From Actinomycetota bacterium (GTDB taxonomy: Bacteria > Actinomycetota > UBA4738 > CALAEC01), in NCBI GenBank assembly GCA_035642095.1, contig DASQTB010000136.1:1-62034 (forward strand): a stretch of 62,034 nucleotides of DNA, read 5' to 3'. The translations under genes were made by a program, and so were the position numbers. A model generated the notes under the pieces. It was not told the DNA's origin and ran no database searches. It saw only the letters and a program-made list of their open reading frames with translations. Below, in pieces: positions 465 to 48,552 of this stretch. Every line of letters starts with the position of its first letter. The first letter of the stretch is position 1.

Positions 465-1220
465 TCAGATCGGGGGCGTGAACCCCTGCACCCACCGGAG
501 GATCCCCAACCGGGAGAGGAGCGGGAGCCACAGGTTCGCGGCCAGCAGGACGCCGATGCCGACCAGGAGTCCCCCGCCGACGCCGGCGAACCAGTGGTAG
601 TTCCGCTTCACGAACCCCAGGGCCCCGGTCAGTCGGCGGAGGCCCAGGCCGATTAGGACGAACGGGAGGCCCAGTCCCAGCGAGTAGGAGAACAGGAGGA
701 ACGCTCCCCAGGCGCCCCCGCCCTGGACCGCGGCCAGCGTCAGGATCCCGGCCAGGACCGGCCCCAGACAGGGCGTCCACCCGGCCGCGAAGGCCATCCC
801 CAGGGGGACGGCCCCCCACCTCCCCGGGCGGACCCGGCTGAGCAGGGGCCGCCACTCCGAGAACAGCCCCGCGTTCCCCAGCCGGAACGCGAACAGGAGC
901 ATCAGCACGCCGATGCCCACCACCACAACTCCGGCGATCCTCTGGCCGGCCGGGGAGGTGAGCGCGGGCCGGAACACCTTCGAGAACGCCCCCGTGAGCG
1001 TGAACACCACGGCGAACCCGAGGACGAACGACAGCAGCGGCATCACCGGCCGGCGCCCCTCCTCCTGCGAGCCCGAGACGAAGCTCAGGTATCCGGGAAC
1101 CAGGGGAAGCACGCAGGGAGAGGCGAAGGACACCACGCCGGCGGCGAACGCCAGCGCCGGGGCCCACCACGAGGACAGCGCCTCCGCCACGCCCACGGGC
1201 CACAGTGTGGCACTTGCCAA
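465..1220 (-). CDS. ccdA: cytochrome c biogenesis protein CcdA (DsbD-family thiol:disulfide transporter)
   Basis: 251 aa polytopic membrane protein with the FASPCVLPLVPGYL motif typical of CcdA/DsbD. TTG start. Followed by resB. Confidence 0.9.
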   Translation of the reverse strand: MASATLWPVGVAEALSSWWAPALAFAAGVVSFASPCVLPLVPGYLSFVSGSQEEGRRPVMPLLSFVLGFAVVFTLTGAFSKVFRPALTSPAGQRIAGVVVVGIGVLMLLFAFRLGNAGLFSEWRPLLSRVRPGRWGAVPLGMAFAAGWTPCLGPVLAGILTLAAVQGGGAWGAFLLFSYSLGLGLPFVLIGLGLRRLTGALGFVKRNYHWFAGVGGGLLVGIGVLLAANLWLPLLSRLGILRWVQGFTPPI

Positions 1221-1257
1221 CCCGGACCCGTTGGGGAAGAATCCGGTCCGGTGCTTG

Positions 1258-1275
1258 TGAATCGGTTCACAAGGA
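1258..1275. promoter_or_regulatory. Rex operator (ROP) site, perfect inverted repeat TTGTGAA-TCGG-TTCACAA
   Basis: The 18-bp sequence read directly matches the published Rex consensus TTGTGAAnnnnTTCACAA at every specified position. It lies in the divergent ccdA / cytochrome-operon intergenic region. rex itself is at 11474-12163. Confidence 0.6.
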
Positions 1276-1357: not shown

Positions 1358-1720
1358 ATGAGACTCCCCATCCCGAAGGCGGTCGAGCGGAGATTGCGAC
1401 CGCTCATGCGCCGGGGCGAGCAGTTCCTCCGGACCTTCGAGTGGACCTGGACCTCGGCCTTCATCGCCGGGCTGATCATCTCGTTCGTGGCCCTGACCAC
1501 GCTGGCGGTGATCCCGTCCTGGATGCTCTATTTCTCCGAGCAGTCGCTGGGCATCTCGCCCGAGAACCGCATCACCCTGGCCATCCGTGACCTGGTGGTG
1601 ACCGGCTGGCTCGGGGTATGGGCCGGGATCTTCGTGGTGACCTTCTACAAGTTCCAGGTGATCCGGAAGCGGCTCCGCGGCGAGCAGCAGGCCGAGCGCT
1701 ACTCGGGCGGATACCGCTAA
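1358..1720 (+). CDS. small 2-TM membrane protein, first gene of the Rieske/cytochrome b operon, function unknown
   Basis: 120 aa with two hydrophobic helices ([19 protein letters not shown] and [18 protein letters not shown]). GGAG SD. The next gene starts 12 nt downstream. Confidence 0.6.
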
Positions 1721-1731
1721 GGAGACGAGCG

Positions 1732-2136
1732 ATGCCGTTCCAGAAGACCGAGGTCGACATCCGAGAGGACTACACCCTCGAGGCCGTCGACCCCGTCTGG
1801 TTGAAGGAGGGCGTGAAGTCGCCCAAGCACCTGATGCTCGACCCCGAGCCGTGCATCCTGTGCCGGGCGTGCGAGGACGTGTGCCCCTGGAACTGCATCT
1901 TCATGTTGGACACGGGCATCATCCAGACCATCGAGGACCCGGCCACCGGCGAGCTCGTCCAGCAGGCCGAGGCGGTGTTCGTGGTCGACGACAACGCGTG
2001 CACCCGGTGCTCCGTGTGCGTGGAGCGCTGCCCGAGCGACTGCCTGTACTACGCCCGGCTGCCCGAAGGAGGCGATGGAGGGCAGCGGACGATGGGCTCC
2101 GTGCCGATGTCGCAGAAGGCCGAGGAGCCGGCGTGA
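1732..2136 (+). CDS. 2x[4Fe-4S] ferredoxin-type protein
   Basis: Two complete CxxCxxCxxxCP motifs ([12 protein letters not shown] and [12 protein letters not shown]). AAGGAG SD 5-10 nt upstream of ATG 1732. The stop overlaps the next start (GTGA). Confidence 0.85.
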
Positions 2137-2906
2137 GGATCCCCCGCCCCCCGAGCCCGACGCAGGTCCTGGACTACATCCAGGACACCGAGGTGTGGCG
2201 TTCGATGTTCCGGCCCGGATCGATCTTCCGGAAGGGGTACAAGGACACGCAGCGGGACCGGGCCCTGGCCGCCATGAACAACGTGCTGTACCACCTCCAC
2301 CCGGTGAAGGTGAAGCGCCACGGGCTCAAGTTGACATACACGTTCTGCCTGGGCGGCCTGTCCTTCTTCCTGTTCATCCTGCTCACCGTGACCGGCATCT
2401 TCCTGATGTTCTTCTACCGTCCGTCGGCCGAGCTGGCCTCCGGCCAGGCGTACACCGACATCGAGACGATCCGAAACAGCGTGGCCTTCGGGGACCTGGT
2501 CCGGAACATGCACCGGTGGGGGGCGCACCTGATGACGATCACGGTGTTCCTCCACATGACCCGGGTGTTCTACACCGGCGCCTACAAGCCGCCCCGGGAG
2601 TTCAACTGGGTGGTCGGCGTGATCCTCCTCCTGATCACCCTGCTGCTGGCCTTCAGCGGCTACCTGTTGCCGTGGGACCAGCTGTCGTTCTGGGCCTTCA
2701 CGGTCGGCACGAGCTTCGGGGCGTACTCGCCGCTCGTGGCCAGGGAGGTCCAGTTCATCCTCCTCGGAGGGCTCGAGGTGAGCGGAGAGACCCTCCTCCG
2801 GTGGTACGTTCTCCATGTCCTGGCGCTTCCGTTCGTGATCACCATCTTCCTGGCCGTGCACTTCTGGAGGATCCGGAAGGACGGCGGGATCTCGGGACCG
2901 CTCTGA
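2133..2906 (+). CDS. petB: cytochrome b6-type subunit (cytochrome b N-terminal domain, 4 TM)
   Basis: Both His pairs are present: [16 protein letters not shown] and [30 protein letters not shown] aligns with the b6 heme-ci cysteine motif (YCLGG). GTG start overlaps the ferredoxin stop. Confidence 0.85.
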
Positions 2907-3751
2907 TGGCCGAGTTCGCCGAGAACCTGAACCCCGAGACCTTCAACCGAGTCCGTGAGGAGCTGCTCGGCCAGGGGGTGCCGCCCCGGGTGGCCGAGGG
3001 CCGGGCCCGGCGGGTGGCCATGGTCGAGTACAACCGGCAGCACGGCGAGGAGGAACCCGCCGGGGCGGCCACCCGCCCACCGGAGGGCGGCGACGGCCAG
3101 GCCGCCGCCCCTGCGGCCGCGGCTCCCGCGGCCCCGGCCGCACCCGCCGCGGCCCCCGGCGCGCCGATGGCCGCCTCGGTGGCCGTGGCCGCGCCAGCCG
3201 CCCCATTGACCGCGCCGCCGCCCACCGGCAAGCTGCCCACACCGAAGGCCGGGGCCCCCGACAAGCACCGGCTCCTGGCGCTGGTCCAGCCGGAGGGGGT
3301 CCAGCGGGTCGAGCGGGAGCAGGGCGACCGGATCAACACGTTCCCCCACCTCCTGCTGGAGGAGCTGCTCTCGCTGGTGATCGTGACCGCGGCCCTGATC
3401 GTGTTCTCGACGTTCGTCAACGCGCCGCTCCGGGAGCTGGCCAACCCGAACCTCACGCCCAACCCATCCAAGGCACCGTGGTACTTCCTCGGCCTCCAGG
3501 AGCTGCTCCGGTACTTCCACCCCATGGTGGCCGGCGTCCTGGTTCCCACCCTGTTCTTCGCGTTCCTGTTCGCCCTGCCCTACGCGGACCGCAACCCCAG
3601 CTCGAAGCCGGGCGACCGGAAGCTGGCCATCGTGCTCTTCACGATGCTCCTCATGTTCTTCGCCGTCCTGACCATCATCGGGGCATTCTTCCGAGGGCCG
3701 GGGTTCAACTTCATCTGGCCGTGGGTGGACGGGGTGTTCTTCGACCTATGA
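2906..3751 (+). CDS. petD: cytochrome b6f subunit IV-like protein (cytochrome b C-terminal domain) with a long Ala/Pro-rich N-terminal extension
   Basis: C-terminal 130 aa carry [19 protein letters not shown] (a PEWY-type Qo motif, variant APWY) plus 3 TM helices. The ATG overlaps the petB stop by 1 nt. Confidence 0.8.
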
Positions 3752-4482
3752 GCCCGCAGACGTTCGCCATCATCATCGTCGCCGGGCTCTTCGCCCTGTT
3801 CGTCCTTCTGGTGATTGCGGCGTTCGTCCGGTCGCGACGAGCGGCCACCGTGTTCCGGGAGGCGGCCCGGGGCGCCGTCCCCAGACCCCCCACGCCGGAG
3901 CGCAGGGAGGGGGCCGCGAAGCCGAGGCCCGTCTCCCGCCGTGACTTCTTCCGGGGGGCGCTGCTGACGTCCTTCGCCGTGTTCGGGGCCGAGTTCGGCT
4001 TGGCCAGCCTGGCCTTCATCTGGCCGAACCTCCAGGGAGGGTTCGGATCGTTGATCGACCTGGGGCTCCCCGCCAGCGCGGTGAAGAGCCAGATCGAGGG
4101 AGACCGCCTGCCGTTCTATTTCGGCGCGGGACGCTTCTACCTGGTCACCTACGACGGCGAGGGCGCCGACACGGAGTACCAGGGTCTGGTCGGCGAGGGG
4201 CTGATGGCCCTGTACCAGAAGTGCGTCCACCTCGGGTGCCGGGTCCCGTTCTGCCAGGCCAGCCAGTGGTTCGAGTGTCCCTGCCACGGCTCCAAGTACA
4301 ACCGAGCCGGCGAGTACCGTGACGGCCCCGCGCCCCGGGGCATGGACCGATTCGCCGTCCGGACCCAGGGCGGAACGGTCCAGGTCGACACGACGCAGAT
4401 CGTCCTCGGACCGCCCCGCGGAATCGACACGATCAAGCAGGAGCCAGAAGGCCCCTTCTGCGTCAACATCGGCGGGGAATGA
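3748..4482 (+). CDS. Rieske [2Fe-2S] iron-sulfur subunit
   Basis: CVHLGC...CPCHGS cluster-binding boxes. N-terminal TM helix followed by an internal twin-arginine-like [11 protein letters not shown] and a second TM helix. ATGA overlap with petD. Confidence 0.9.
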
Positions 4483-5279
4483 CCGACCTCCTGGCGCTCT
4501 CCACCCCGGTGACCATCGCCCTGGTGGCCGGCGTCCTGATCGGCCTGGGCTTCGTGGCCTGGCTGATCGCCCTGGCCATCCGGAAGCGAGGCGACCGCGG
4601 TCCGGACATCCCCCCGGGGATGCGCCCCGGTCCCTCGGACGAGGTCCTGGAGCGGCGTCAGCGGGAGAAGGTCATGGGATGGGGGGTCCTGTTCGTCCTC
4701 CTCTCCGCGATCTGGCTCCCGGCGCTGTGGTTGGGGGAGCCGGGCCAGAACGTCGACGACGCTATCGAGCTGATCTCGCGGTCGGAGCAGCGTGGATCCC
4801 AGTGGTTCCAGGAGACCTCCGAGGAGAACCCGACCGGCTACGGCTGCGCCCGGTGCCACGGCGAGGAAGCCCAGGGGGGCAGCGTGCCGTTCACCCCCGA
4901 GGGCGAAGAGGAGCCCATCGAGTATCCGGTGCCGTCCCTGTCGGACGTGTGCGGTCGGCTCGACGTCGAGGAGATCAGGACGACGATCGAGCAGGGCCGG
5001 GAGGGGACCCCGATGCCCTCGTGGAGCGTGTCGTACGAGGGACCGATGAACGACCAGCAGATCCTGGACCTCATCAACTACCTGGTATCCATCCAGACGG
5101 TGACCGGTGACGCCAACCTGTGCCTGAACCCGCCGGTCGCCGACGAGGAACCGGCCCCCGGCCCGACCGCGTCCGTGACTCCCGGCGCGCCGACCGGCGA
5201 GGAGCCCCAGCAGGGCGGGGCCGGCCAGGGCGGCGGGGGTTCGTCGCCCGGACCCGAGGCCTCGCCGGGGAACGCCTGA
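4479..5279 (+). CDS. membrane-anchored mono-heme c-type cytochrome
   Basis: Two N-terminal TM helices, a single CARCH (CxxCH) heme motif with a distal Met region (GTPMPSW), and a Pro/Gly/Glu-rich tail. ATGA overlap with the Rieske gene. Confidence 0.8.
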
Positions 5280-6001
5280 TGGAGCTCCTGGCCCTCACCC
5301 GGGACAACATCGAGGGTGTCCTGGTGGTGGTCTCCGCGTTCGTCATCTTCGGCGGCAGTGTGCTGCTGCTCCTGGGAGCGGTGTTCGGCCTGCGCATGGC
5401 CTACCTCCTGGTGGCCACGGGGTTCTTCGCCTTCATGATCATCCTGTCCGCCCTGTGGTCCTTCGGCGCCGAGCTGTTCGGTGTCGGGACCCCACCGTTC
5501 CTGGGACCGAAGGGGGAGATCCCCACGTGGATCGCCCTCGACGCGGGGAGAGACCTGACCTCCCCCACGTTCCCCGTCCTCGACCGATATCCGGACGATC
5601 CGTGGACATCGGCCGAGGAGGACCCCTCCCGCACCCCCGAGGTCGAGTCGGTCACCCTGGCCGTGCAGGAGTTCCTGACCGAGGAGGCTCAGGCCGAGCT
5701 GGCCCGAGCTCGGATCGAGGGCGAGGTGACGCCGGAGGACTTCCAGGTCACCGACATCGAGTTCACCACGGTCGACGACACGCCGCTGGCCGCGGCCCGA
5801 GCGTTCGCCTCCGGGGGAGGTCCGGAGGTCGAGGTGTTCGCGTACAAGGATCCCGGGAACGAGCCCCTCCCCTCGTACCTGTTCCTGGCGGCCTCGGTGA
5901 TCGGGTTCGTGGTCCACCTTCCCTTCCTCGATCGGGCGGAGCGGAAGCGGAAGGACATCCTCACCGGTGGCCAGCAGGCCCCGTGGCGGGGACCGGCGTA
6001 G
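5279..6001 (+). CDS. membrane protein of unknown function (3 N-terminal TM helices plus 1 C-terminal TM helix), operon member
   Basis: 240 aa. The ATG overlaps the cytochrome c stop by 1 nt (TGATG). Hydrophobic segments flank an acidic soluble domain. Confidence 0.6.
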   Translation: MELLALTRDNIEGVLVVVSAFVIFGGSVLLLLGAVFGLRMAYLLVATGFFAFMIILSALWSFGAELFGVGTPPFLGPKGEIPTWIALDAGRDLTSPTFPVLDRYPDDPWTSAEEDPSRTPEVESVTLAVQEFLTEEAQAELARARIEGEVTPEDFQVTDIEFTTVDDTPLAAARAFASGGGPEVEVFAYKDPGNEPLPSYLFLAASVIGFVVHLPFLDRAERKRKDILTGGQQAPWRGPA

Positions 6002-6011
6002 GAAGGGACGG

Positions 6012-6128
6012 ATGGAGGCGCTGGGGTTCATCGTCGCGGCGGTGGAGGAGGGAGGGCTGTCGTTCATCCTCTTCTCGGTGATGGTGGTCGTCGTCTTCGT
6101 GGCCATGCTGATCACGATCGCCCGGTAG
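6012..6128 (+). CDS. 38-aa single-TM micro-protein, possible small subunit of the complex
   Basis: Below the ORF-track size cutoff. Translation is MEALGFIVAAVEEGGLSFILFSVMVVVVFVAMLITIAR. Nearly all third positions are G/C. GGAAGGGA precedes the ATG. Confidence 0.45.
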   Translation: MEALGFIVAAVEEGGLSFILFSVMVVVVFVAMLITIAR

Positions 6129-6137
6129 GGGGACGAC

Positions 6138-7421
6138 TCAGCCGGCCAGGACCCGGGCCGCCTCCCGAACCGCGGCCACGGTCCGGTCGACCTCGGCGGG
6201 CCGGTGGGCGGTGCCCGGGAACCAGGCCTCGTAGCCGGACGGCGGAAGGTACACGCCCCGATCGAGCATGGCGTGGAAGAAGCGGGCGAATGCCCGGTGA
6301 TCCGCCCCCTGGGCCGACCGGAAGTCGGTCACGGGGTCGGGGCCGAAGAACACCGAAAGGAGTGGACCGACCCGGTTCACGGTGTGGGCGATGCCAGCCC
6401 CGCGGAGGGCGTCCGACACGCGGTCGGCCAGCTCGGCCGCGGCTCGCTCCAGCGCGTCGTAGGGATCCAGCCGGTCGATCAGATCGAGGACGGCCAGCCC
6501 GGCGGCCACGGCCACTGGGTTCCCCGACAGCGTTCCGGCCTGATACACCGGTCCTGCCGGGGCCAGGTGGTCCATCAGGTCCGCCCGACCCCCGAAGGCG
6601 GCGGAGGGGAAGCCCCCGCCCATCACCTTGCCCATCACCGTGAGGTCCGGAAGGATGCCCAGCCGCTGCTGGGCGCCGCCCGGGGCCAGCCGGAAGCCCG
6701 TGATCACCTCGTCGAAGATCAGCACGGCGCCGTGCTCCCGGGTGAGGCTCCGGAGCCGCGTCAGGAACCCCTCCGAGGGAGGGACCACTCCCATGTTGGC
6801 GGCCACCGGCTCGACGATCGCCGCGGCGATCGAGGTCCCCGATCGCTCGAACGCCGTGCCCAGAACATCGGCCTCGTTGTAGGGGACCACGATGGTGTCG
6901 GCCACGGCCCCGTGGGTGACCCCCGGCGTGCCCGGGATCCCCAGCGTGGCCACCCCGGATCCCGCCGCGGCCAGCAGGGCGTCGGCGTGGCCGTGGTAAC
7001 AGCCCTCGAACTTGACGACCTTCGTCCGGCCGGTCGCTCCCCGGGCCAGCCGGACGGCGCTCATGGCCGCCTCCGTGCCGCTGGAGACGAGCCGAACGGC
7101 GTCCACGGACGGGACCATCTCCACGATGCGCTCGGCCAGGCGAACCTCACCCTCCGTCGGCGCCCCGAACGACGTCCCCCGTCGGGCGGCCTCGGTTGCG
7201 GCGTCGACGATCTCCGGCCGGCCATGACCGAACAGGAGCGCACCCCAGGACTGCACGTAGTCGAGGAGGACGTCCCCGTCCACGGTCCGGAGATACGCCC
7301 CGTCCCCCGAGGCGACGAACCTCGGAGTTCCCCCGACCGTCCGGAACGCGCGGACGGGCGAGTTCACGCCGCCGGGAACCACGTCCCAGGCCCGGTCGAA
7401 CAGCTCCTCGGAGGTGCTCAG
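6138..7421 (-). CDS. hemL: glutamate-1-semialdehyde 2,1-aminomutase
   Basis: [11 protein letters not shown], the class III aminotransferase body and a PLP-lysine region (VMGKVMGGG). The start is uncertain. The conserved N-terminus begins at CTG 7421, which overlaps the hemB stop. The only upstream ATG (7529) adds an Arg/Gly/Pro-rich 36 aa that lies inside hemB. Confidence 0.85.
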
Positions 7422-8401
7422 GCCAGGGCCTCGGCGGCCTCGCGGGCGAAGTACGTCAGGATCAGATCCGCCCCGGCCCGGCGGATCGAGGTCAGCACCT
7501 CGACCATGGCCTGGGGACCGTCGAGCCATCCCCGCTCCGCCGCGGCCTTGACCATGGCGTATTCGCCCGAGACGTTGTACGCGGCCACGGGGACACCGCC
7601 CGCTTCCACCCTGGCCCGCCGGATCACGTCGAGATACGGGAGCGCGGGCTTGACCATGACGATGTCGGCCCCCTCGTCGACATCCTGCCGGATCTCCAGG
7701 AGGGCCTCGTCGGCGTTGGCCGGATCCATCTGGTACGCCCGGCGGTCACCGAATCGCGGAGCACATTCCGCGGCGTCCCGGAACGGGCCGTAGAAGGTGG
7801 AGGCGAACTTGGCGGCGTAGGCCAGGATCCCCGTCTCGGAGCGGCCTTCGTCGTCCAGCGCCGACCGGATCGCAGCGACCTGACCGTCCATCATGCCCGA
7901 CGGCGCCACCAGGTCGGCGCCGGCCGCGGCCTGCGACACGGCGATCCGGCGGTAGCGCTCGAGGGTTCGGTCGTTGTCGACCATGCCCCGATCGTCGAGC
8001 ACCCCGCAGTGGCCGTGATCGGTGTACTCGTCCAGGCACAGGTCCGAGATCAGCACCGCGTCGTCCCCGAACTCCTCCCGGAGCGCCCGGAGCCCCTCCT
8101 GGGCCACACCCCGGTCGTTCCACGCCTCGCTCCCCTCGGCGTCCTTCCTCTCCGGGATGCCGAACAGCACGAAAGCGGTGACCCCCACCGCGTGGATCTG
8201 CCGGGCCTCCTTCCGAAGAGACTCCAGGGTGTGCTGAACCTGGCCGGGCATGGACCGGATCGGTGCCGGCTCCTCGATCCCTTCCTTCAGGAACATCGGA
8301 GCCACCAGGTGCCGGGGTGACAGATCGGTCTCCCGGACCAGTGCCCGGATGGACACCGTGCGCCGGAGCCGCCGGGCCCGGTGGTGGGGGAACGCGGCCA
8401 T
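7418..8401 (-). CDS. hemB: porphobilinogen synthase (delta-aminolevulinate dehydratase)
   Basis: 327 aa with a typical ALAD sequence (RRLRRT..., PMFLKEG, active-site region [11 protein letters not shown]). Confidence 0.92.
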
Positions 8402-8571
8402 GAGGCGATGCTACACGAGGGTGGCCCGATCCCATCCGAAGGGCTCGGTGGCGATTCAGGTCGGCCTCGCAGGAGAAGTCCTGGCCGAGGCCGCCCGAGG
8501 GGGACAGGGAAGCTCGAGCCGGTACGACTCCCCCGGTTGGATGCCTGGTGCCGACGTCGAGCTGCTGGCTA

Positions 8572-9318
8572 CTACCCGAGGGCCCGGCCGAGCGCCTCCA
8601 CCAACCCCTCGGTCGTGTGTGGGTCGGCCACCGCGGCGACGTCGAAGCCGGCACCCCGGGCCGCCTCGGCCGTCACGGGCCCGATGCACACGATCGATGG
8701 CCGCCGCGGCACACCGGCCAGTGTGACGAACCCCTCCACCGTGGATGGGGACGTGAACGTGATGGCGTCCACTCGTTCCTCCTCCAGGGCTCGACGCGCT
8801 CTCGCGGGAAGCGATTCGACCAGAGACACGTGGTAGGCATCCACGCGGACAGGTGACCACCCCTTCCCGCGGAGAGCCTCCTCCAGCTCATCCGTGGCCA
8901 GGTCGGCACGGGGGAGCAGCACCGCTCCGCTGCCTCTGGGGAACGCTTCAGCGAGGGCAGCCGTGGTGAACGCCGGGGGGACCAGATCCGGCTTCCTGAT
9001 GGCGGCTCGGACCGCCTCGGCCGTCGTTCGACCGATCGCCGCCAGGCGGGCGGGGACGGCGGCGGGGGCGACGGCGGCGGCCCGCTCGGACCACCCCGTC
9101 ACCCCAGTCGCGCTGGTGAAGACGATCCAGGCGTACCGCCCCGCTGCCACCCCTCGGATCGCCGCGTCCAGGTCGCCCCCGGCCTCCGGGGGGGACAAAC
9201 GGATGGTGGGGGCAACCAGCGGGTCCGCTCCCAGCGCCCGGAGACGGGCGGCAAGGTCCTCGGCCTGTTCAGCCGGGCGGGTGACCAGGACGACCCGGCC
9301 CTCCAGGGGCCCGGTCAC
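8572..9318 (-). CDS. hemD: uroporphyrinogen-III synthase
   Basis: GRVVLVTRPAEQAEDLAARLRALGADPLVAPTI is a typical HemD N-terminus. GTG 9318 overlaps the hemC stop (GTGA). The longer track ORF lies inside hemC. Confidence 0.8.
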   Translation of the reverse strand: MTGPLEGRVVLVTRPAEQAEDLAARLRALGADPLVAPTIRLSPPEAGGDLDAAIRGVAAGRYAWIVFTSATGVTGWSERAAAVAPAAVPARLAAIGRTTAEAVRAAIRKPDLVPPAFTTAALAEAFPRGSGAVLLPRADLATDELEEALRGKGWSPVRVDAYHVSLVESLPARARRALEEERVDAITFTSPSTVEGFVTLAGVPRRPSIVCIGPVTAEAARGAGFDVAAVADPHTTEGLVEALGRALG

Positions 9319-10196
9319 TGCTCCAGGGCCCGGAGTATGTCCTCGGCGCCGGCCGAGCGGAGGATCTCCGCCGCCTCGGCCGCGGCGTCCTCGGCCGTAT
9401 CGGCTTCGACCTGGCTCCACAGGAGATCCGAGCCGTCGGGTCGCACGACCACGGCCAGGAGCCGAACCGCATTCCTCCGGGTCTCCGCGTACGCCCCGAG
9501 GGGCAGACGACAGCCGCCGCCGAGGAGCGACACGACCCGGCGTTCCGCCTCGAACGCGGTCCTCGATGGGAGATGGTCGATCTCGGCCGCAGCCTCCCCG
9601 GCCGGCCCGACCCGGCCCTGAACGGCCAGCGCCCCCTGGCCGGGGGCGGGAACCATCTCGTCGACGGGGAGCGGGTGGACGTGCGTCGGGGTCACCCCCA
9701 GCCGGGCCAGTCCGGCCGCGGCCAGGATCAGCCCGTCGATCGGGCCGTCTTCCAACCGGCGAAGCCGGGTGTCGACGTTCCCTCGCACGTCCCGGACGTC
9801 GGCGTCCCCCCGGATCCGCAGGTACTGGGCTCGCCGACGGAGGCTGGACGTCCCCACCACAGGCCGTTCCGGCAGCCCCGGCTCCCGGGTGACCAGGACG
9901 TCGTACGGCAGACCTCGCTGGGGAACCGCCACGACCTCGACACCCGGCGGATCGTTCGACGGCAGGTCCTTGGCAGAGTGCACGGCCAGATCGATCTCGC
10001 CCCGAACCACCGCCTCAGTGATGTCTCCCACGAACAGGCCCTTGATGCCGTACGCCTCCGGCGAGGCGCCCCGATCCCCCGCCGTGGTCATCGGCGCCAC
10101 CTCCACGAGGTGACCCCGGGCCCTCAGGAGGTCAGAGACCTCCTCGGCCTGGGCCAGGGCGAGGCGGGATCGCCGCGTGCCGATGCGGAGCCTCAG
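9315..10196 (-). CDS. hemC: hydroxymethylbilane synthase (porphobilinogen deaminase)
   Basis: The conserved N-terminus LRLRIGTRRSRLALAQAEEV lies upstream of the track start (GTG 10106). There is no ATG/GTG/TTG between it and the hemA stop, so I place the start at CTG 10196. Confidence 0.85.
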   Translation of the reverse strand: MRLRIGTRRSRLALAQAEEVSDLLRARGHLVEVAPMTTAGDRGASPEAYGIKGLFVGDITEAVVRGEIDLAVHSAKDLPSNDPPGVEVVAVPQRGLPYDVLVTREPGLPERPVVGTSSLRRRAQYLRIRGDADVRDVRGNVDTRLRRLEDGPIDGLILAAAGLARLGVTPTHVHPLPVDEMVPAPGQGALAVQGRVGPAGEAAAEIDHLPSRTAFEAERRVVSLLGGGCRLPLGAYAETRRNAVRLLAVVVRPDGSDLLWSQVEADTAEDAAAEAAEILRSAGAEDILRALEQ

Positions 10197-10199
10197 GGC

Positions 10200-11462
10200 C
10201 TACTCCGGAGGCTCGAGGCCGAACAGCTCGGCCAGCGTCCGGGCGGAATCCTCACCGACTCCTCTCCCGGCCCGGTCCTTGAGCCTGGTCACCGGGTCGT
10301 GGAGCAGCCGGCGAACGATCCGTCGGGTCAGCGCATCCACCGCGTGTCGATCGCGCTCGGTCCCCAGCCTTCCGGCGATCCGGCGGACCTCCTCGGCCCT
10401 GATGGCCTCTCCCCGGGCGTGGAGAGCCTCGATCAGCGGTGCCAGCCTCGCCGCCCGCCGGGCCACGGCGTACCGCCGGGTCTCCTCGGCCACGATCCCG
10501 GTGGCTCGGTCAACCTCGGCCGCGATCTGACCCCGCCGCCGAGCGACTACGTCTCGCAAGTCGTCGATGTCGACGAGGGCCACCCCCGGGAGCACCGCCA
10601 CCTCCGGGTCCACGTCACGAGGGACCGCCAGGTCGAGGAGGAACGTCCGGCCGGCCCGGCCCCCCAGGGCCCGACGAACCATCGGGACGTGGACCACCGA
10701 TCCGGTGGACCCGGTCGACGACACGACGAGCTCCGCACCCGAAAGGGCCGCCTCGATCTCCTCCATCGAACCGTGCCGCCCTCCAATCGTGGCCGCCAGG
10801 CGCTCCGCTCGATGAGCCCGCCTGGACAGGACCACCACCTCACCCACCTCGCGGTCCCGAAGGGCCCGGACAGCGAGCGCGCCCATGTCCCCGGCCCCGA
10901 TCACCAGCACGGATCGTCCCGGGAGCCCCCCCAGGTGCTCGGCGGCCAGCTCCGCGCCGGCTTCGACGAACGCGGCCGGGCTGGCCCCGATGGCCGTCTC
11001 GGCCCGAACACGCCTTCCCGCCCGGACCGCCCGGCGGAACAGGTCGGCCAGGGCCGGGCCGGCGGCACCCTCGGCATCGGCCCGCCGGAACGCCGCCCGG
11101 ACCTGGGCCAGGATCTGAGGCTCTCCCAAGACCATCGAATCTAGCCCCGACGCCACGGCGAAGAGGTGCTCCGAGGCATCGTCCTCGTAGTGCGAGTACA
11201 GGGGCTCGGCGAGCTGCTCGGCCGGCACTTCCGATTGTTCCGTGAGGAAACGCTTCAGGTCCAGGAATCCCTGGTGGTACAGGGTCACGTCCGCGTAGAC
11301 CTCGATCCGGTTGCACGTCGACAGGATCACGGACTCCCGGATCGACTCCAGCCCCTGGAGACGCCGGTATGACTTCGACTCCTGCTCCTCGGGGATGGTC
11401 AGCCGCTCCAGGAGCTCGACCGGAGCCGCCCGGTAGGAGACTCCCAGCGCCAGGACGGGCAT
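10200..11462 (-). CDS. hemA: glutamyl-tRNA reductase
   Basis: 420 aa with ILSTCNRIEVY (catalytic Cys), the VLVIGAGDMG NADPH fold and a C-terminal dimerisation helix. Confidence 0.92.
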   Translation of the reverse strand: MPVLALGVSYRAAPVELLERLTIPEEQESKSYRRLQGLESIRESVILSTCNRIEVYADVTLYHQGFLDLKRFLTEQSEVPAEQLAEPLYSHYEDDASEHLFAVASGLDSMVLGEPQILAQVRAAFRRADAEGAAGPALADLFRRAVRAGRRVRAETAIGASPAAFVEAGAELAAEHLGGLPGRSVLVIGAGDMGALAVRALRDREVGEVVVLSRRAHRAERLAATIGGRHGSMEEIEAALSGAELVVSSTGSTGSVVHVPMVRRALGGRAGRTFLLDLAVPRDVDPEVAVLPGVALVDIDDLRDVVARRRGQIAAEVDRATGIVAEETRRYAVARRAARLAPLIEALHARGEAIRAEEVRRIAGRLGTERDRHAVDALTRRIVRRLLHDPVTRLKDRAGRGVGEDSARTLAELFGLEPPE

Positions 11463-11473
11463 GGCTCAGCTCC

Positions 11474-12163
11474 TCAGGAACGGGGCCCGACCTCGGCCAG
11501 CTGCCGGCCCCGGCCGCCCTTCACGTCGGCCAGCACCGCCTTCCGCTGCTCGTAGAAGCCGAGGATCTGAAGCTCGATCGACAGGTCGACCTTTCGAAGG
11601 GATACCCCGGGCGGCACGGCGATCACCGCGGGGGCGAAGTTCAGGATCGATCGGATGCCGCCCTCGACCATCCGATCGGCCACCTCCTGAGCCCCGGAGG
11701 CGGGGGTGCAGACGATCCCGATGGCCACATCATGGCGGCGAACCAGCCGCGGCAGGTCGTCGACGGAGCGGACCTGGATGCCGGCCACGACCTCCCCCAC
11801 CTTGCCCGGATCGGAGTCGACCAGGGCCACCACCCGGAACCCACGCTCGGCGAACCCCTTGTAGTTGGCCAGGGCCTGGCCGAGGTTGCCGATGCCGGCG
11901 ATCAGCACGGGCCAGTCCTGGGTCAGGCCCAGCACCCTCCGCACCTGGTGGATGAGGTAGGCCACGTCATAGCCCACCCCCCGGGTCCCGTAGGAGCCGA
12001 GGTAGGAGAGATCCTTCCTGACCTTGGCCGAGTTCACCCCGGCCGCCTCGGCCAGGTCCTCTGACGAGGTCGTGGTCCTGCCCCCCTCGGCCATCTCCAC
12101 CAGGGCCCGGAGGTAGACCGGGAGCCGCCCCACCGTGGCCTCGGGGATGGCTCGCCGCCTCAC
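11474..12163 (-). CDS. rex: redox-sensing transcriptional repressor Rex
   Basis: RLPVYLRAL winged-helix N-terminus and the GIGNLGQALANY Rossmann motif. Located 11 nt upstream of hemA, as in the Streptomyces rex-hemACD arrangement. Confidence 0.9.
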   Translation of the reverse strand: MRRRAIPEATVGRLPVYLRALVEMAEGGRTTTSSEDLAEAAGVNSAKVRKDLSYLGSYGTRGVGYDVAYLIHQVRRVLGLTQDWPVLIAGIGNLGQALANYKGFAERGFRVVALVDSDPGKVGEVVAGIQVRSVDDLPRLVRRHDVAIGIVCTPASGAQEVADRMVEGGIRSILNFAPAVIAVPPGVSLRKVDLSIELQILGFYEQRKAVLADVKGGRGRQLAEVGPRS

Positions 12164-13675: not shown

Positions 13676-14221
13676 GTGGCCGAGACCGACCTCGAGCTGA
13701 TCCGCCGGATCGCCTCGCGGGATCCCGGTGCCTTCGAGAACCTGTACCGACGGTACGGGCCCTCGATCTACGGCGTGGCGGTCCGGGTCCTCCGCCAGCC
13801 GTTCCTGGCCCAGGAGGTGGTGCACGACACGTTCATGGCGGTGTGGAACGCGCCCGACGCCTACGATCCCAGCCGGGGCCCGTTCCGGGCCTATCTCCTG
13901 TCCCTGGGCCATCATCGGGCGGTCGACGCGGTGCGCAGGGAGGAGCGGCTCCGGGACCGCGAGCGCCGAGCGAACCCGGGCCCGGACCCCGGCGAAGATG
14001 TGATGGAGAACGTCGTCGAGGAGGCCGACCTGGCCGACCGGCGGCGGGCGGTCCGGGAAGCGATGGATGCCCTCCCCGAGGATCAGCGCCGCCTGGTGGA
14101 GCTCATGTACTTCAGAGGATGGACGCAGTCGAAGATCGCCTCGACCGAGGGGATCCCCCTCGGTACGGTGAAGAGCCGGGTGTTCGCGGCCATGCGCCGG
14201 CTCCGGGAAGCCCTGTCGTGA
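13676..14221 (+). CDS. ECF-type RNA polymerase sigma factor
   Basis: Sigma-70 region 2 (FENLYRRYGPSIYGVAVRVL, DTFMAVW) and region 4 (LVELMYFRGWTQSKIASTEGIPLGTVKSRV). GTG start. Confidence 0.88.
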   Translation: MAETDLELIRRIASRDPGAFENLYRRYGPSIYGVAVRVLRQPFLAQEVVHDTFMAVWNAPDAYDPSRGPFRAYLLSLGHHRAVDAVRREERLRDRERRANPGPDPGEDVMENVVEEADLADRRRAVREAMDALPEDQRRLVELMYFRGWTQSKIASTEGIPLGTVKSRVFAAMRRLREALS

Positions 14222-48457: not shown

Positions 48458-48552
48458 CACATCTATGGTACGGCACCCGCTCGGAGAGGCAGCCCGCAAA
48501 TCGAATGAGGAAGGCCCCGCTCCCGAACGGAGCGGGGCCTTCCGACGTGGTC

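What the first reader, a model, noticed from the sequence alone, without database searches (positions are those of the whole stretch)
1358..6128. b6-type (split cytochrome b, heme-ci cysteine) Rieske/cytochrome b operon with a translationally coupled 2x[4Fe-4S] ferredoxin
- **Operon layout:** eight tightly packed genes encode a 2-TM protein, a 2x[4Fe-4S] ferredoxin, cytochrome b6, subunit IV, Rieske, a mono-heme cytochrome c, a 4-TM protein and a 38-aa TM peptide. Starts and stops overlap in several junctions (GTGA, TGATG, ATGA, ATGA, TGATG).
- **Departure from the actinobacterial norm:** the canonical actinobacterial complex III is QcrCAB, with unsplit cytochrome b and a di-heme cytochrome c.
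- **b6-type features:** here cytochrome b is split. The N-terminal subunit carries TFCLGG, which aligns with the YCLGG cysteine that binds heme ci covalently in b6f and firmicute b6c complexes. The Qo motif reads APWY rather than PEWY or PDWY.
- **Ferredoxin:** a ferredoxin-type subunit coupled directly to the b6 gene suggests an extra cytoplasmic electron entry or exit near the Qi/heme-ci side. This would be formally analogous to ferredoxin-dependent quinone reduction.
- **Status:** I do not know of a characterised complex with this composition.
Basis: partly seen in the sequence, partly recalled or inferred. Interest (0 to 1): 0.65.

Follow-up and report, generated by a model that had tools for sequence, protein, structure and literature searches.

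The report
Split cytochrome b complex with ferredoxin subunit
An uncultured soil actinobacterium, like at least 80 related species, encodes a chloroplast-style (split cytochrome b6) respiratory complex III with an extra cytoplasmic iron-sulfur subunit, probably a pared-down version of the NAD(P)-linked module known from anammox bacteria, whose role is untested.

Summary
Window 1358-6128 holds eight co-oriented genes:
- a 2-TM protein
- a 134-aa 2x[4Fe-4S] ferredoxin
- cytochrome b6
- subunit IV
- Rieske
- a mono-heme cytochrome c
- a roughly 3-TM protein
- a 38-aa peptide

Cys72 of b6 aligns with the heme-cn Cys35 of solved b6f structures, and the Qo motif is APWY.

The ferredoxin lies directly upstream of b6 in 80 of 80 related Actinomycetota genomes. 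It is the second most conserved protein of the operon.

The split-b, CxGG, APWY lineage is already described, as the "APWY clade" or "subfamily G". Its link to cytoplasmic FeS-flavoprotein subunits is known from anammox bacteria. In more distant relatives (Acidimicrobiales, Chloroflexota) the same operon slot holds a 480-670-aa GltD-like NAD(P) flavoprotein. Its C-terminal dicluster domain is the specific homologue of this ferredoxin.

The window therefore carries a minimal, stand-alone version of that n-side module, here combined with a retained heme-ci cysteine. I found no report of this variant.

A perfect Rex operator, conserved in 51 of 78 related genomes, lies upstream.

Whether electrons enter or leave through the ferredoxin is unresolved.

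Verdict: new variant of a known kind, interest about 0.55.

The parts
1214..1242 (+). Promoter-like site (TTGCCA-17-AAGAAT) in the ccdA/g1 intergenic region
   Evidence: Consensus scan found 1 site against 0.1 expected. This is weak evidence only.
1255..1272 (.). Rex operator, the perfect palindrome TTGTGAATCGGTTCACAA, 86 nt upstream of the g1 ATG
   Evidence: It is the only match in the 62-kb window (0.02 expected). The half-sites are kept and the spacer varies in 51 of 78 related genomes, at the same position. The same loci give 0 background matches in 416 kb. That this sequence is the Rex consensus rests on my own knowledge of Streptomyces and Bacillus Rex operators.
1358..1720 (+). g1: 120-aa 2-TM protein. 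Both ends are predicted cytoplasmic (positively charged), and the C-terminal GGY[RK] is invariant.
   Evidence: No Pfam or NCBIfam hit. TM segments at 30-59 and 76-97. Found in 64 of 78 loci by tblastn. A diverged 171-aa form ending in GGYK occurs in Nitriliruptorales locus L078. Conservation pattern.
1732..2136 (+). Ferredoxin-like 2x[4Fe-4S] subunit, 134 aa, with no signal peptide or TM segment (cytoplasmic)
   Evidence: Fer4_7 and Fer4 Pfam hits. The eight ligand Cys (41, 44, 47, 51, 90, 93, 96, 100) are invariant in 80 of 80 genomes, as are W23 and W53; C55 is kept in 79 of 80. It lies directly upstream of b6 in 80 of 80 genomes. Median identity is 69%. It is homologous to the C-terminal dicluster domain of the GltD-like subunits in L084-L087.
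2133..2906 (+). Cytochrome b6 (4 helices), with the heme-ci Cys72 in TFCLGG, the b-heme ligands His127/141/228/243, and a conserved n-side N-terminal extension with an invariant His54
   Evidence: Pfam Cytochrome_B, 3e-44. NCBIfam ExtP scores 288.4 bits against a cutoff of 290. Alignment to PDB b6 chains. Invariant columns in alignments A1 and A2.
2906..3751 (+). Subunit IV (3 TM, Qo motif APWY) with a roughly 145-aa cytoplasmic N-terminal extension that includes an Ala/Pro-rich linker
   Evidence: Cytochrom_B_C, 1.5e-11. Alignment to 1Q90_D subunit IV. TM segments. Conservation starts at about residue 120.
3748..4482 (+). Rieske [2Fe-2S] protein: an N-terminal TM segment, an internal SRRDFFRG Tat-like motif, CVHLGC...CPCHGSKY
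   Evidence: Pfam Rieske and PetC-like NCBIfam hits. The motifs are invariant in 61 genomes. The S-Y signature falls in the 'high potential' class of PMC4122944.
4479..5279 (+). Membrane-anchored (2 TM) mono-heme class I cytochrome c, with CARCH and a conserved MPxW
   Evidence: Pfam Cytochrom_C, and NCBIfam c550/c551-like below cutoff. TM segments. CxxCH is conserved.
5279..6001 (+). g7: 240-aa membrane protein of unknown function, about 3 TM, with an acidic domain of roughly 130 aa between TM2 and TM3
   Evidence: No family or PDB hit. Present in 53 of 53 loci that are long enough, at a median identity of 42%.
6012..6128 (+). g8: 38-aa single-TM peptide
   Evidence: ORF and hydropathy. Detected by tblastn in 23 of 52 loci. 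It is called as a gene in independent assemblies.
11474..12163 (-). Rex, the NADH/NAD+-sensing repressor and probable regulator of the operon
   Evidence: NCBIfam NF003992 scores 337 bits against a cutoff of 226. It lies next to hemA-C-D-B-L.

Best explanation
**What it is.** The locus encodes a menaquinol:cytochrome c oxidoreductase of the b6c type. It is probably a respiratory complex III of a soil Actinomycetota lineage that includes Nitriliruptoria-like MAGs.

**Core.** The core belongs to the described APWY / 'subfamily G' branch of Rieske/cytochrome b complexes:
- a four-helix b6 with two b hemes and a cysteine placed to bind heme ci covalently
- a three-helix subunit IV with APWY at Qo
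- a Rieske protein with the high-potential S-Y signature
- a membrane-anchored mono-heme cytochrome c

**The added subunit.** On the cytoplasmic (n) side the complex carries a tightly co-expressed 2x[4Fe-4S] subunit. It is the stand-alone counterpart of the membrane-proximal dicluster domain of the GltD-like NAD(P) flavoprotein subunit that occupies the same operon slot in Acidimicrobiales, Chloroflexota and other relatives. That is the type of subunit proposed for anammox Rieske/cyt b complexes.

**Inferred mechanism.** The two clusters form a short wire between the n-side end of the low-potential chain (heme bH / heme ci) and a cytoplasmic redox partner that is not encoded in the operon. Electrons could then enter the Qi side from a low-potential donor, or leave it. 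The ordinary Q-cycle to cytochrome c and the neighbouring aa3 oxidase would run in parallel.

**Other parts.** Three lineage-specific membrane proteins (g1, g7, g8) are accessory subunits. Transcription is probably repressed by Rex and relieved when NADH/NAD+ rises.

**Shown.** Gene content, motifs, homologies, synteny and the operator.

**Inferred.** Physical attachment of the ferredoxin, electron transfer to or from heme ci, its direction, and Rex control.
For: - **Domains and motifs:**
- **Conservation:** all eight genes are syntenic, and the Fdx lies directly upstream of b6 in 80 of 80 species-level genomes. The Fdx is the second most conserved product, at 69% median identity against 77% for b6, 61% for SUIV and 54% for Rieske. 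Its eight cluster cysteines are invariant. It is therefore a constrained subunit, not a decaying remnant.
- **Expression link:** the GTGA start/stop overlap with b6 is read directly from the sequence.
- **Same slot in distant relatives:** four more distant b6 relatives (51-55% identity) carry, in the same operon, a 482-666-aa protein with Fer4_20, Pyr_redox_2, NAD_binding_8 and a C-terminal Fer4 dicluster. It lies directly upstream of b6 in three of them and upstream of Rieske-b in the fourth.
- **Specific homology:** the window Fdx aligns to that C-terminal domain at 31-37% identity, E about 1e-13. An HMM of the Fdx family scores 31-43 bits on these four domains. It scores 12 bits on the only other Fer4-containing ORF of those loci that it hit, and the rest gave no hit.
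- **Published parallel:** for anammox complexes the literature describes the same architecture and an FeS path from the n-side hemes to the flavin (PMC12954380). Subfamily G is noted to co-occur with cytoplasmic oxidoreductase subunits (PMC5600118).
- **Genomic setting:** the operon lies between ctaE-ctaF-ctaG/ccsA-resB-ccdA and hemLBDCA-rex. This fits a housekeeping respiratory role.
- **Regulation:** Rex operator and Rex gene.
- **Rieske class:** the S-Y signature is conserved.
Against: - No experiment or structural model shows that the Fdx binds the complex.
- The flavin/NAD(P) module is absent from the operon, from the 62-kb window and from +-6 kb in the 80 genomes. No redox partner is identified, so the subunit could be purely structural.
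- The four sampled relatives with the fused flavoprotein lack the heme-ci cysteine. FeS module and heme ci together are not the rule in the family.
- The conserved b6 N-terminal extension also occurs in relatives with no FeS gene. It cannot be claimed as a ferredoxin dock.
- Sequence identity between Fer4 domains is partly forced by the cysteine motifs.
- No transcript data were found.
- Whether the genome also has qcrCAB could not be checked.
Confidence: 0.6

Rival explanations
1. The ferredoxin is a structural or vestigial subunit. It is what remained as the docking domain after the flavoprotein part was lost. It stabilises the n-side of the complex, or senses redox state, but carries no metabolic electron flux.
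For: No flavin/NAD(P) module or other partner lies in the operon or nearby. The complex keeps a complete canonical core with the heme-ci cysteine and the conserved C-terminal RK...GISGPL, so a normal Qi site is plausible. Supernumerary subunits are common in complex III (established knowledge).
Against: All eight cluster ligands are invariant over 80 genomes, and the protein is more conserved than SUIV and Rieske. That is unexpected if the clusters no longer matter. A redox-sensing role would explain it too.
Confidence: 0.2
2. The ferredoxin is a soluble electron carrier or maturation factor that is only co-expressed with the complex. It might keep heme or the b6 cysteine reduced for n-side heme-ci attachment, or serve neighbouring heme-biosynthesis or cytochrome-maturation enzymes. 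On this reading it is not a subunit.
For: The operon sits inside a heme-biosynthesis and cytochrome c maturation island. No CCB-type heme-ci maturation proteins were recognised among g1, g7 and g8, so an unknown maturation route is needed. The Fdx has no membrane anchor.
Against: In sister operons the homologous domain is fused to a large subunit placed at the same position next to b6. In anammox this type of subunit co-migrates with the complex (PMC12954380). Four relatives have the homologous domain but no heme-ci cysteine, so the domain does not exist for heme-ci attachment. The start/stop overlap with b6 suggests matched stoichiometry.
Confidence: 0.12
3. The operon is an Ext-type (ExtOPQ) module for selenite/tellurite or extracellular metal reduction, as the NCBI name given to close homologues implies.
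For: b6 scores 288.4 bits on NF040969 ExtP, whose cutoff is 290. Several close homologues are named ExtP by NCBI.
Against: SUIV scores 65.9 against a cutoff of 150 for ExtQ. The Geobacter ext cluster is defined by multiheme cytochromes ExtKL/M/N/S, porin ExtI and rhodanese ExtH (PMC5877670). None of these is present here or in the 80 related loci. The context here is aa3 oxidase, cytochrome c maturation and heme synthesis.
Confidence: 0.03

Closest known systems
Anammox (Kuenenia stuttgartiensis) Rieske/cytochrome b complexes Kuste4569-4574 and Kustd1480-1485, with their cytoplasmic NAD(P) oxidoreductase subunit (Kartal 2013; de Almeida 2016; PMC12954380)
   Same: - b6-like split cytochrome b of the same broad branch (subfamily G / APWY), with a heme cN site.
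- Rieske protein of high-potential type.
- A chain of [4Fe-4S] clusters sits against the n-side of cytochrome b.
- The FeS part is structurally related to FwdF polyferredoxin, which is also the best PDB sequence match of the window ferredoxin.
   Different: - Here only a 134-aa dicluster protein is present, with no FAD/NAD(P) domain.
- The cytochrome c is mono-heme, not hexa- or octaheme.
- SUIV has 3 TM, not 5.
- The setting is an aerobic-type actinobacterial island next to aa3 oxidase.
GltD-like flavoprotein-bearing Rieske/cyt b operons of Acidimicrobiales and Chloroflexota MAGs (loci L084-L087), uncharacterised
   Same: - b6 is 51-55% identical, with the same N-terminal extension and invariant His54.
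- SUIV carries APWY (AAWY in L086).
- The gene in the same slot ends in a dicluster domain homologous to the window ferredoxin.
   Different: - They have a 350-500-aa Fer4_20/FAD/NAD(P) part.
- They lack the CxGG cysteine (Y or G instead).
- They lack g1, g7 and g8.
- The Chloroflexota operon adds a molybdopterin (FdhA/NuoG-like) subunit.
Firmicute b6c menaquinol:cytochrome c reductase (Bacillus QcrABC, Heliobacterium PetABCD)
   Same: - Split cytochrome b with a covalently bound heme ci at CxGG.
- A Gram-positive setting in which menaquinol is presumed to be the substrate (the quinone of these MAGs was not determined here).
- Class I mono-heme cytochrome c.
   Different: - The Qo motif there is PDWY or PEWY, and the Rieske protein is low-potential (G-F type).
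- In Bacillus the cytochrome c is fused to SUIV.
- There is no ferredoxin subunit.
- NCBIfam PRK03735 'cytochrome b6' scores 199 against a cutoff of 325.
Cyanobacterial/chloroplast cytochrome b6f
   Same: - b6 is the best match among solved structures (E 7e-44).
- Cys35 corresponds to Cys72, all four His ligands align, and the C-terminal RK..GISGPL is shared.
- Ferredoxin/FNR input at heme cn has long been proposed for cyclic electron flow (PMC5600118).
   Different: - b6f has cytochrome f, PEWY and PetG/L/M/N.
- It has no bound FeS protein.
- It uses plastoquinone.
Actinobacterial QcrCAB (bcc) complex III
   Same: - Host phylum.
- Rieske protein with an extra N-terminal TM segment and an internal Tat-like motif.
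- Neighbourhood of cta genes.
   Different: - QcrB is unsplit and about 540 aa (NF050120 scores 110.7 against a cutoff of 500).
- QcrC is di-heme.
- The Qo motif is PDWY.
- There is no heme ci and no ferredoxin (PMC4122944).
Geobacter ExtOPQ (within extHIJKLMNOPQS)
   Same: The b6 is close enough to almost reach the ExtP equivalog cutoff. It is also a split b in the APWY clade.
   Different: ExtP lacks the 47-residue N-terminal extension (the HMM match starts at residue 48). The operon here has no multiheme cytochromes, porin or rhodanese, and the ext cluster has no ferredoxin.

Membership tests
b6-type (split) Rieske/cytochrome b complex | Cytochrome b split into a 4-helix b6 and a 3-helix subunit IV encoded by separate genes | tested here: met
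   Cytochrome_B covers residues 66-250 of the 257-aa product. Cytochrom_B_C lies in the next gene, which overlaps it by TGATG. SUIV has three TM segments.
b6-type (split) Rieske/cytochrome b complex | Four histidine ligands for hemes bL and bH | tested here: met
   His127, 141, 228 and 243 align with the b6 histidines in the HMMER alignments to 1VF5, 2ZT9 and 7R0W. They are invariant or nearly invariant in A1 and A2.
b6-type (split) Rieske/cytochrome b complex | CxGG cysteine that binds heme ci/cn covalently | tested here: met
   Sequence level only. TFC72LGG aligns with FYC35LGG. The cysteine is invariant in 17 close homologues. Covalent heme itself cannot be tested with these tools.
b6-type (split) Rieske/cytochrome b complex | Rieske [2Fe-2S] subunit with CxH...CxCH | tested here: met
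   CVHLGC and CPCHGS are invariant in 61 genomes.
APWY clade (Kao & Hunte 2014) / subfamily G (Dibrova et al.) | APWY at the Qo motif of the C-terminal part of b, or of SUIV | tested here: met
   KAPWYF aligns with LPEWYF of 1Q90_D. It is conserved in the 58 related genomes aligned and in SUIV of L084 and L085.
APWY clade (Kao & Hunte 2014) / subfamily G (Dibrova et al.) | Associated Rieske protein of Mid+ to high predicted potential (S-F or S-Y signature after CxCH) | tested here: met
   CPCHGSKY gives S-Y, and it is conserved. The potential itself was not measured.
APWY clade (Kao & Hunte 2014) / subfamily G (Dibrova et al.) | Placement inside the clade in a cytochrome b phylogeny | not tested
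   No tree was built. Membership is inferred from motifs, the near-cutoff ExtP score and 45-56% identity to Chloroflexota, Acidimicrobiales and Planctomycetota relatives.
Anammox-type Rieske/cyt b complex with an n-side NAD(P) oxidoreductase | Cytoplasmic subunit with FAD/NAD(P)-binding (GltD-like) domains | tested here: not met
   The product has 134 aa and only Fer4 domains. No GltD-like ORF lies in the window or within +-6 kb in the 80 genomes.
Anammox-type Rieske/cyt b complex with an n-side NAD(P) oxidoreductase | [4Fe-4S] domain adjacent to cytochrome b, encoded next to the b gene | tested here: met
   Homology to the C-terminal dicluster domain of the fused subunits in L084-L087. Physical adjacency cannot be tested.
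Anammox-type Rieske/cyt b complex with an n-side NAD(P) oxidoreductase | Multiheme (hexa- or octaheme) cytochrome c subunit | tested here: not met
   The operon has a single CxxCH.
NCBIfam ExtP/ExtQ (selenite/tellurite reduction operon) | Scores above the equivalog cutoffs, and an ext gene context | tested here: not met
   ExtP scores 288.4, below the cutoff of 290. ExtQ scores 65.9, below 150. ExtH, I, KL, M, N and S have no counterparts here.
Actinobacterial QcrCAB | Unsplit QcrB, di-heme QcrC, PDWY | tested here: not met
   NF050120 scores 110.7 against 500, and NF050121 scores 19.1 against 275. The cytochrome c is mono-heme. The motif is APWY.
Bacterial-type 2x[4Fe-4S] ferredoxin fold | Two CxxCxxCxxxCP motifs | tested here: met
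   C41/44/47/51-P52 and C90/93/96/100-P101 are invariant in 80 of 80 genomes. The fold was not confirmed because the AF2 model had low confidence.
Rex regulon | TTGTGAA-N4-TTCACAA operator in the promoter region, and a rex gene in the genome | tested here: met
   Binding and NADH response cannot be tested here.

The most novel reading that the evidence does not exclude
A respiratory b6c complex whose heme bH/ci end is hard-wired, through a bound 2x[4Fe-4S] subunit, to the cytoplasmic low-potential redox pool. It could act as a direct ferredoxin-type donor:menaquinone reductase at Qi. That would be a natural, stable version of the long-debated ferredoxin-to-heme-ci route of b6f cyclic electron flow. 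Alternatively, with a high-potential Rieske protein working on low-potential menaquinol, it could be a quinol-bifurcating complex that pushes electrons out to a low-potential cytoplasmic acceptor. An invariant n-side histidine (His54 of b6) may correspond to the ligand of the extra inter-monomer heme b that AlphaFold3 predicts in the anammox complexes. That heme would bridge the hemes and the clusters.
Probability: 0.3. Interest if true: 0.8.

Novelty: new variant of a known kind. Interest (0 to 1): 0.55.

Why it matters
- **A minimal test case.** Rieske/cytochrome b complexes are among the best-studied energy converters. Whether electrons can be exchanged directly between the n-side hemes (especially heme ci) and cytoplasmic iron-sulfur carriers is still open, both for b6f cyclic electron flow and for the anammox complexes proposed to make NAD(P)H. 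This actinobacterial operon offers the simplest natural arrangement I found: a complete b6c core with the heme-ci cysteine plus just one small dicluster protein.
- **Widespread and possibly tractable.** At least 80 species-level genomes of soil and saline Actinomycetota carry it, and more than 580 genomes encode a relative of the b6. Some of the 80 belong to groups with cultured members (Nitriliruptoria), so a tractable source organism may exist.
- **Evolution.** Within one b6 lineage the n-side module ranges from nothing, to a ferredoxin, to a flavoprotein, to a flavoprotein plus a molybdoenzyme. That bears on the 'membrane-anchored dehydrogenase' scenario for the origin of bc complexes.
- **Annotation.** NCBI names close homologues 'selenite/tellurite reduction ... 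ExtP', which the gene context does not support.

Tried and rejected
- **Fusion protein:** P0103 (407 aa) looked like a natural ferredoxin-cytochrome b fusion. The alignment shows a frameshift that destroys the second cluster motif, so it is an artefact.
- **Fused-chain model:** a ferredoxin-linker-b6 chain was submitted to structure prediction to mimic a complex.
- **AF2 of the ferredoxin:** with 31 homologues that are all at least 73% identical, the model reached pLDDT 36.5 and is unusable. No fold search was made on it.
- **Plasmids:** tblastn of b6 against plasmids gave only distant bc1 or b6 genes below 43% identity.
- **Transcripts:** no RNA run holds the operon. Only soil metagenome DNA runs do.
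- **Literature:** Dibrova et al. 2013 (PMC3839093) is not held. Searches for this operon in Nitriliruptoria, or for ferredoxin with the APWY clade, found nothing.
- **b6 N-terminal extension as the ferredoxin dock:** weakened, because relatives with no FeS gene also have it.
- **g1 as the two extra SUIV helices:** g1 shows no similarity to the extra helices of the 5-TM SUIV of relatives.
- **g7 homologue search:** it could not be made because the database was switched off. g7 therefore remains without an alignment or a model.
- **Second complex III:** whether the genome also carries qcrCAB could not be checked. Only the 62-kb window and +-10 kb of related contigs are readable.

Full report
**1. 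What is in the sequence**

Window 1358-6128 carries eight genes on the + strand:

| Gene | Coordinates | Product |
|---|---|---|
| g1 | 1358-1720 | 120 aa, two TM segments |
| Fdx | 1732-2136 | 134 aa ferredoxin-like protein |
| b6 | 2133-2906 | 257 aa cytochrome b6, GTG start |
| SUIV | 2906-3751 | 281 aa subunit IV |
| Rieske | 3748-4482 | 244 aa |
| cyt c | 4479-5279 | 266 aa, one CARCH |
| g7 | 5279-6001 | 240 aa |
| g8 | 6012-6128 | 38 aa peptide |

- The overlaps GTGA, TGATG, ATGA, ATGA and TGATG sit at the Fdx/b6, b6/SUIV, SUIV/Rieske, Rieske/cyt c and cyt c/g7 junctions.
- g1 and Fdx are separated by 11 nt that contain AGGAG.
- Pfam recognises Fer4 dicluster, Cytochrome_B, Cytochrom_B_C, Rieske and Cytochrom_C domains. 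g1, g7 and g8 hit nothing in Pfam or NCBIfam, and g7 also hit nothing in the PDB.
- Hydropathy gives 2 TM for g1, none for the ferredoxin, 3 for SUIV, 2 for the cytochrome c and about 3 (not 4) for g7.

**2. The b6-type features**

- In HMMER alignments to the solved b6 chains 1VF5, 2ZT9 and 7R0W (E about 1e-43), TFC72LGG lines up with FYC35LGG.
- The four heme-ligand histidines and the C-terminal RK..GISGPL also line up.
- KAPWYF of SUIV aligns with LPEWYF of Chlamydomonas subunit IV.
- The Rieske protein has CVHLGC...CPCHGSKY. The S-Y signature is the predicted high-potential class of Kao & Hunte. It is conserved in the 61 related genomes aligned.
- The Rieske protein also has an N-terminal TM segment followed by an internal SRRDFFRG Tat-like motif.

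**3. Conservation and host**

- A scan of one genome per species found at least 581 genomes that encode a relative of the b6. The best 80 (71-89% identity) are all Actinomycetota MAGs. They include Euzebya, Egibacteraceae, Nitriliruptoraceae and many unclassified soil lineages.
- tblastn with the eight window proteins shows the ferredoxin directly upstream of b6 in 80 of 80 loci.
- SUIV, Rieske, cytochrome c and g7 are present in every locus that is long enough.
- g1 is found in 64 of 78 loci. A diverged 171-aa form that ends in the same GGY[RK] is present in a Nitriliruptorales locus.
- Median identity to the window proteins:

| Protein | Median identity |
|---|---|
| b6 | 77% |
| Ferredoxin | 69% |
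| SUIV | 61% |
| Rieske | 54% |
| g7 | 42% |
| cyt c | 40% |
| g1 | 36% |

- The ferredoxin's eight cluster cysteines, W23 and W53 are invariant, and C55 is kept in 79 of 80 genomes.

The ferredoxin is thus one of the most constrained parts of the operon.

**4. Genomic setting**

An independent assembly that extends beyond the window start shows this order:
- ctaE (COX3), COX4_pro, CtaG, a cupredoxin protein
- ccsA-resB-ccdA on the opposite strand
- the operon
- hemL-hemB-hemD-hemC-hemA-rex on the opposite strand

This is an aerobic-respiration, cytochrome-maturation and heme-synthesis island. The rest of the window that I scanned holds unrelated housekeeping genes.

**5. What the ferredoxin is related to**

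Its best sequence matches among solved structures are modules of the FwdF polyferredoxin. The gene context of more distant b6 relatives is more telling. I took these from a search of 50%-identity cluster representatives.
- In an Acidimicrobiales MAG (b6 51% identical), a Chloroflexota MAG (54%) and one unnamed metagenomic contig (53%), the gene directly upstream of b6 encodes a 482-666-aa protein with Fer4_20, Pyr_redox_2, NAD_binding_8 and a C-terminal Fer4 dicluster.
- In a fourth relative with an unsplit b (55%), the same kind of gene lies upstream of Rieske-b.
- The window ferredoxin aligns over its whole dicluster core with that C-terminal domain, at 31-37% identity and E about 1e-13. The CPW[ND]C motif is shared with the Chloroflexota protein.
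- An HMM built from the 80 ferredoxins scores 31-43 bits on exactly these four domains. It scores 12 bits on one other Fer4 ORF of the same loci and does not hit the rest.

The ferredoxin is therefore best read as the stand-alone counterpart of the FeS domain that lies next to cytochrome b in GltD-like n-side subunits.

This type of subunit is known from the literature.
- Short cytochromes b of 'subfamily G' co-occur with NAD(P)-binding FeS proteins (PMC5600118).
- In Kuenenia such complexes are reported to be expressed at high levels (PMC5600118) and their subunits co-migrate (PMC12954380). They are modelled with a chain of four clusters running from the n-side hemes to FAD (PMC12954380).

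**6. Limits of the association**

- The small ferredoxin was not found next to b6 in any of nine sampled contexts outside the window's clade.
  - Four of these have the fused flavoprotein.
  - The other five have neither: a Planctomycetota long b, an Ext-like operon with multiheme cytochromes, an Anaerolineae long b, an error-rich long contig, and a 1.9-kb fragment that is too short to judge.
- No GltD-like ORF occurs in the window or within +-6 kb of the operon in the 80 genomes.
- The four relatives with the fused flavoprotein lack the CxGG cysteine. They have Y or G in its place. The window clade and the Ext-like relative keep it.
- The combination seen here is a stand-alone dicluster subunit, a retained heme-ci cysteine, a 3-TM SUIV, a mono-heme cytochrome c, and g1, g7 and g8. 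It is specific to this actinobacterial clade.

**7. Regulation**

- A perfect Rex-type palindrome, TTGTGAATCGGTTCACAA, lies at 1255-1272. That is 86 nt upstream of g1 and 13 nt downstream of a promoter-like site.
- It is the only match in the window, even when two mismatches are allowed (0.02 expected).
- In 51 of 78 related genomes a box with the same half-sites and a variable spacer lies at the same place. The same loci give no match in 416 kb downstream.
- A Rex gene (337 bits against a cutoff of 226) lies at 11474-12163.
- The box also faces the divergent ccdA-resB-ccsA genes.
- That this sequence is the Rex consensus rests on my knowledge of the Streptomyces and Bacillus operators. Binding is untested.

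**8. How it most likely works**

Shown:
- a complete b6c-type core
- a cytoplasmic 2x[4Fe-4S] protein co-encoded with b6, overlapping its start and strongly conserved
- homology of that protein to the b-proximal FeS domain of n-side oxidoreductase subunits

Inferred:
- The ferredoxin binds the n-side of b6/SUIV, perhaps with help from g1, whose two ends are predicted cytoplasmic.
- It exchanges electrons with heme bH or heme ci.

The direction is open.
- **Input is favoured by two observations.** The Chloroflexota operon adds a molybdopterin FdhA/NuoG-like subunit upstream of the flavoprotein. That looks like a dehydrogenase feeding the membrane part. Rex control would raise expression when NADH accumulates.
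- **Output is made possible by one observation.** Output here means reduction of a low-potential acceptor, driven by bifurcation at Qo. A high-potential-type Rieske protein in a phylum that uses menaquinone is the argument made for the anammox complexes (PMC12954380). That Actinomycetota use menaquinone is my own knowledge and was not checked for this genome.
- The partner is not encoded nearby.

One more lead: an invariant histidine (His54) in the n-side N-terminal segment of b6 is conserved in all 27 sequences aligned.
- Its distance to the conserved R248-K249 is 190-201 residues across the family.
- In Kuenenia, His43/His62 to Arg247/Arg266 is 204 residues. Those histidines are the proposed ligands of an extra inter-monomer heme b.
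- I could not align the Kuenenia sequences, so this remains a lead.

**9. Rival readings**

- **Structural or vestigial subunit, about 0.2.** It fits the missing partner, but fits the invariant cluster ligands less well.
- **Co-expressed soluble carrier or heme-ci maturation factor, about 0.12.** The homologous domain is fused into a subunit in relatives that have no heme-ci cysteine. This argues against the maturation idea.
- **Ext-type selenite or metal reduction, about 0.03.** This is what NCBI's name for close homologues implies. The gene context contradicts it, and so does the ExtQ score.

**10. Novelty**

- The split-b, CxGG, APWY lineage has been described by comparative genomics, and so have its presence in deep-branching Actinobacteria, its high-potential Rieske proteins and its association with cytoplasmic FeS/NAD(P) subunits.
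- Kao & Hunte noted in 2014 that no APWY-type complex had been characterised.
- I found no description of the stand-alone ferredoxin variant, of g1, g7 or g8, or of the Rex operator. The library does not cover most subscription journals, and Dibrova 2013 could not be read.
- I rate it a new variant of a known kind.

**11. What failed**

- AF2 of the ferredoxin (pLDDT 36.5).
- The fused-chain trick.
- The homologue search for g7.
- The search for transcript data.
- The apparent fusion protein P0103, which is a frameshift artefact.

Noticed in passing
window 1255-1272: A perfect Rex-operator palindrome, TTGTGAATCGGTTCACAA, lies between the divergent ccdA and g1 genes. It is conserved at the same place in 51 of 78 related genomes. 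A Rex gene lies at 11474-12163 (-).
   Followed up: yes
window 465-1220 (-) and 6138-12163 (-); locus L081: The operon is inserted between the cytochrome c maturation genes ccdA-resB-ccsA (with ctaE-ctaF-ctaG beyond them) and hemL-hemB-hemD-hemC-hemA-rex. Together they form one respiration and heme island. From memory, ccdA/resB/ccsA adjoin hemL directly in mycobacteria.
   Followed up: partly
proteins P0028, P0034, P0037, P0039 (close b6 homologues): NCBI names these actinobacterial proteins 'selenite/tellurite reduction operon b-type cytochrome ExtP'. The related operons examined here have no ext-type multiheme cytochrome, porin or rhodanese genes, so the equivalog name looks like over-annotation.
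   Followed up: partly
L084 1-498 (-), partial, next to COX1/COX2: The Acidimicrobiales contig also encodes a 787-aa protein that combines Cytochrome_B, Fer4, FlpD-like and Cytochrom_C hits, adjacent to a heme-copper oxidase. It is a second, fused cytochrome b-FeS-cytochrome c protein, possibly the 'PDWF-FeS' type mentioned by Kao & Hunte.
   Followed up: no
L085 1670-6001: In the Chloroflexota relative, a 941-aa molybdopterin oxidoreductase (FdhA/NuoG-like, with Fer2_4 and Fer4 domains) precedes the GltD-like gene, b6, SUIV, Rieske and two cytochrome c genes. CcmE lies upstream. It looks like a dehydrogenase fused into a Rieske/cyt b operon.
   Followed up: no
window 3050-3270 (within SUIV); antisense ORFs 2660-3520 and 2839-3549: An Ala/Pro-rich low-complexity linker in the cytoplasmic N-terminal extension of SUIV is poorly conserved among relatives. 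This GC-rich stretch produces long antisense shadow ORFs that are not genes.
   Followed up: partly
window 1358-1720 (g1 C-terminus); L078 4980-5495: The C-terminal GGY[RK] of the 2-TM protein g1 is invariant, and it persists in a diverged 171-aa Nitriliruptorales version. It is a possible contact motif on the cytoplasmic side.
   Followed up: partly
b6 residue His54 (window 2292-2294): An n-side histidine 18 residues before the CxGG cysteine is invariant in all close and distant relatives aligned. It may correspond to the ligand of the extra inter-monomer heme b predicted for the anammox complexes.
   Followed up: partly
protein P0103: A 407-aa 'Fer4 + cytochrome b' database protein is a frameshifted read-through of the ferredoxin and b6 genes, not a natural fusion.
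   Followed up: yes
window 13676-14937, 18677-20725, 22150-24186, 47198-48460: Ordinary neighbours: an ECF sigma factor with an RskA-like anti-sigma factor, a PAS-GAF histidine kinase, a GGDEF-EAL protein, and an MshA-like glycosyltransferase (408 bits, below the 462.5 cutoff) that fits an actinobacterial host.
   Followed up: no
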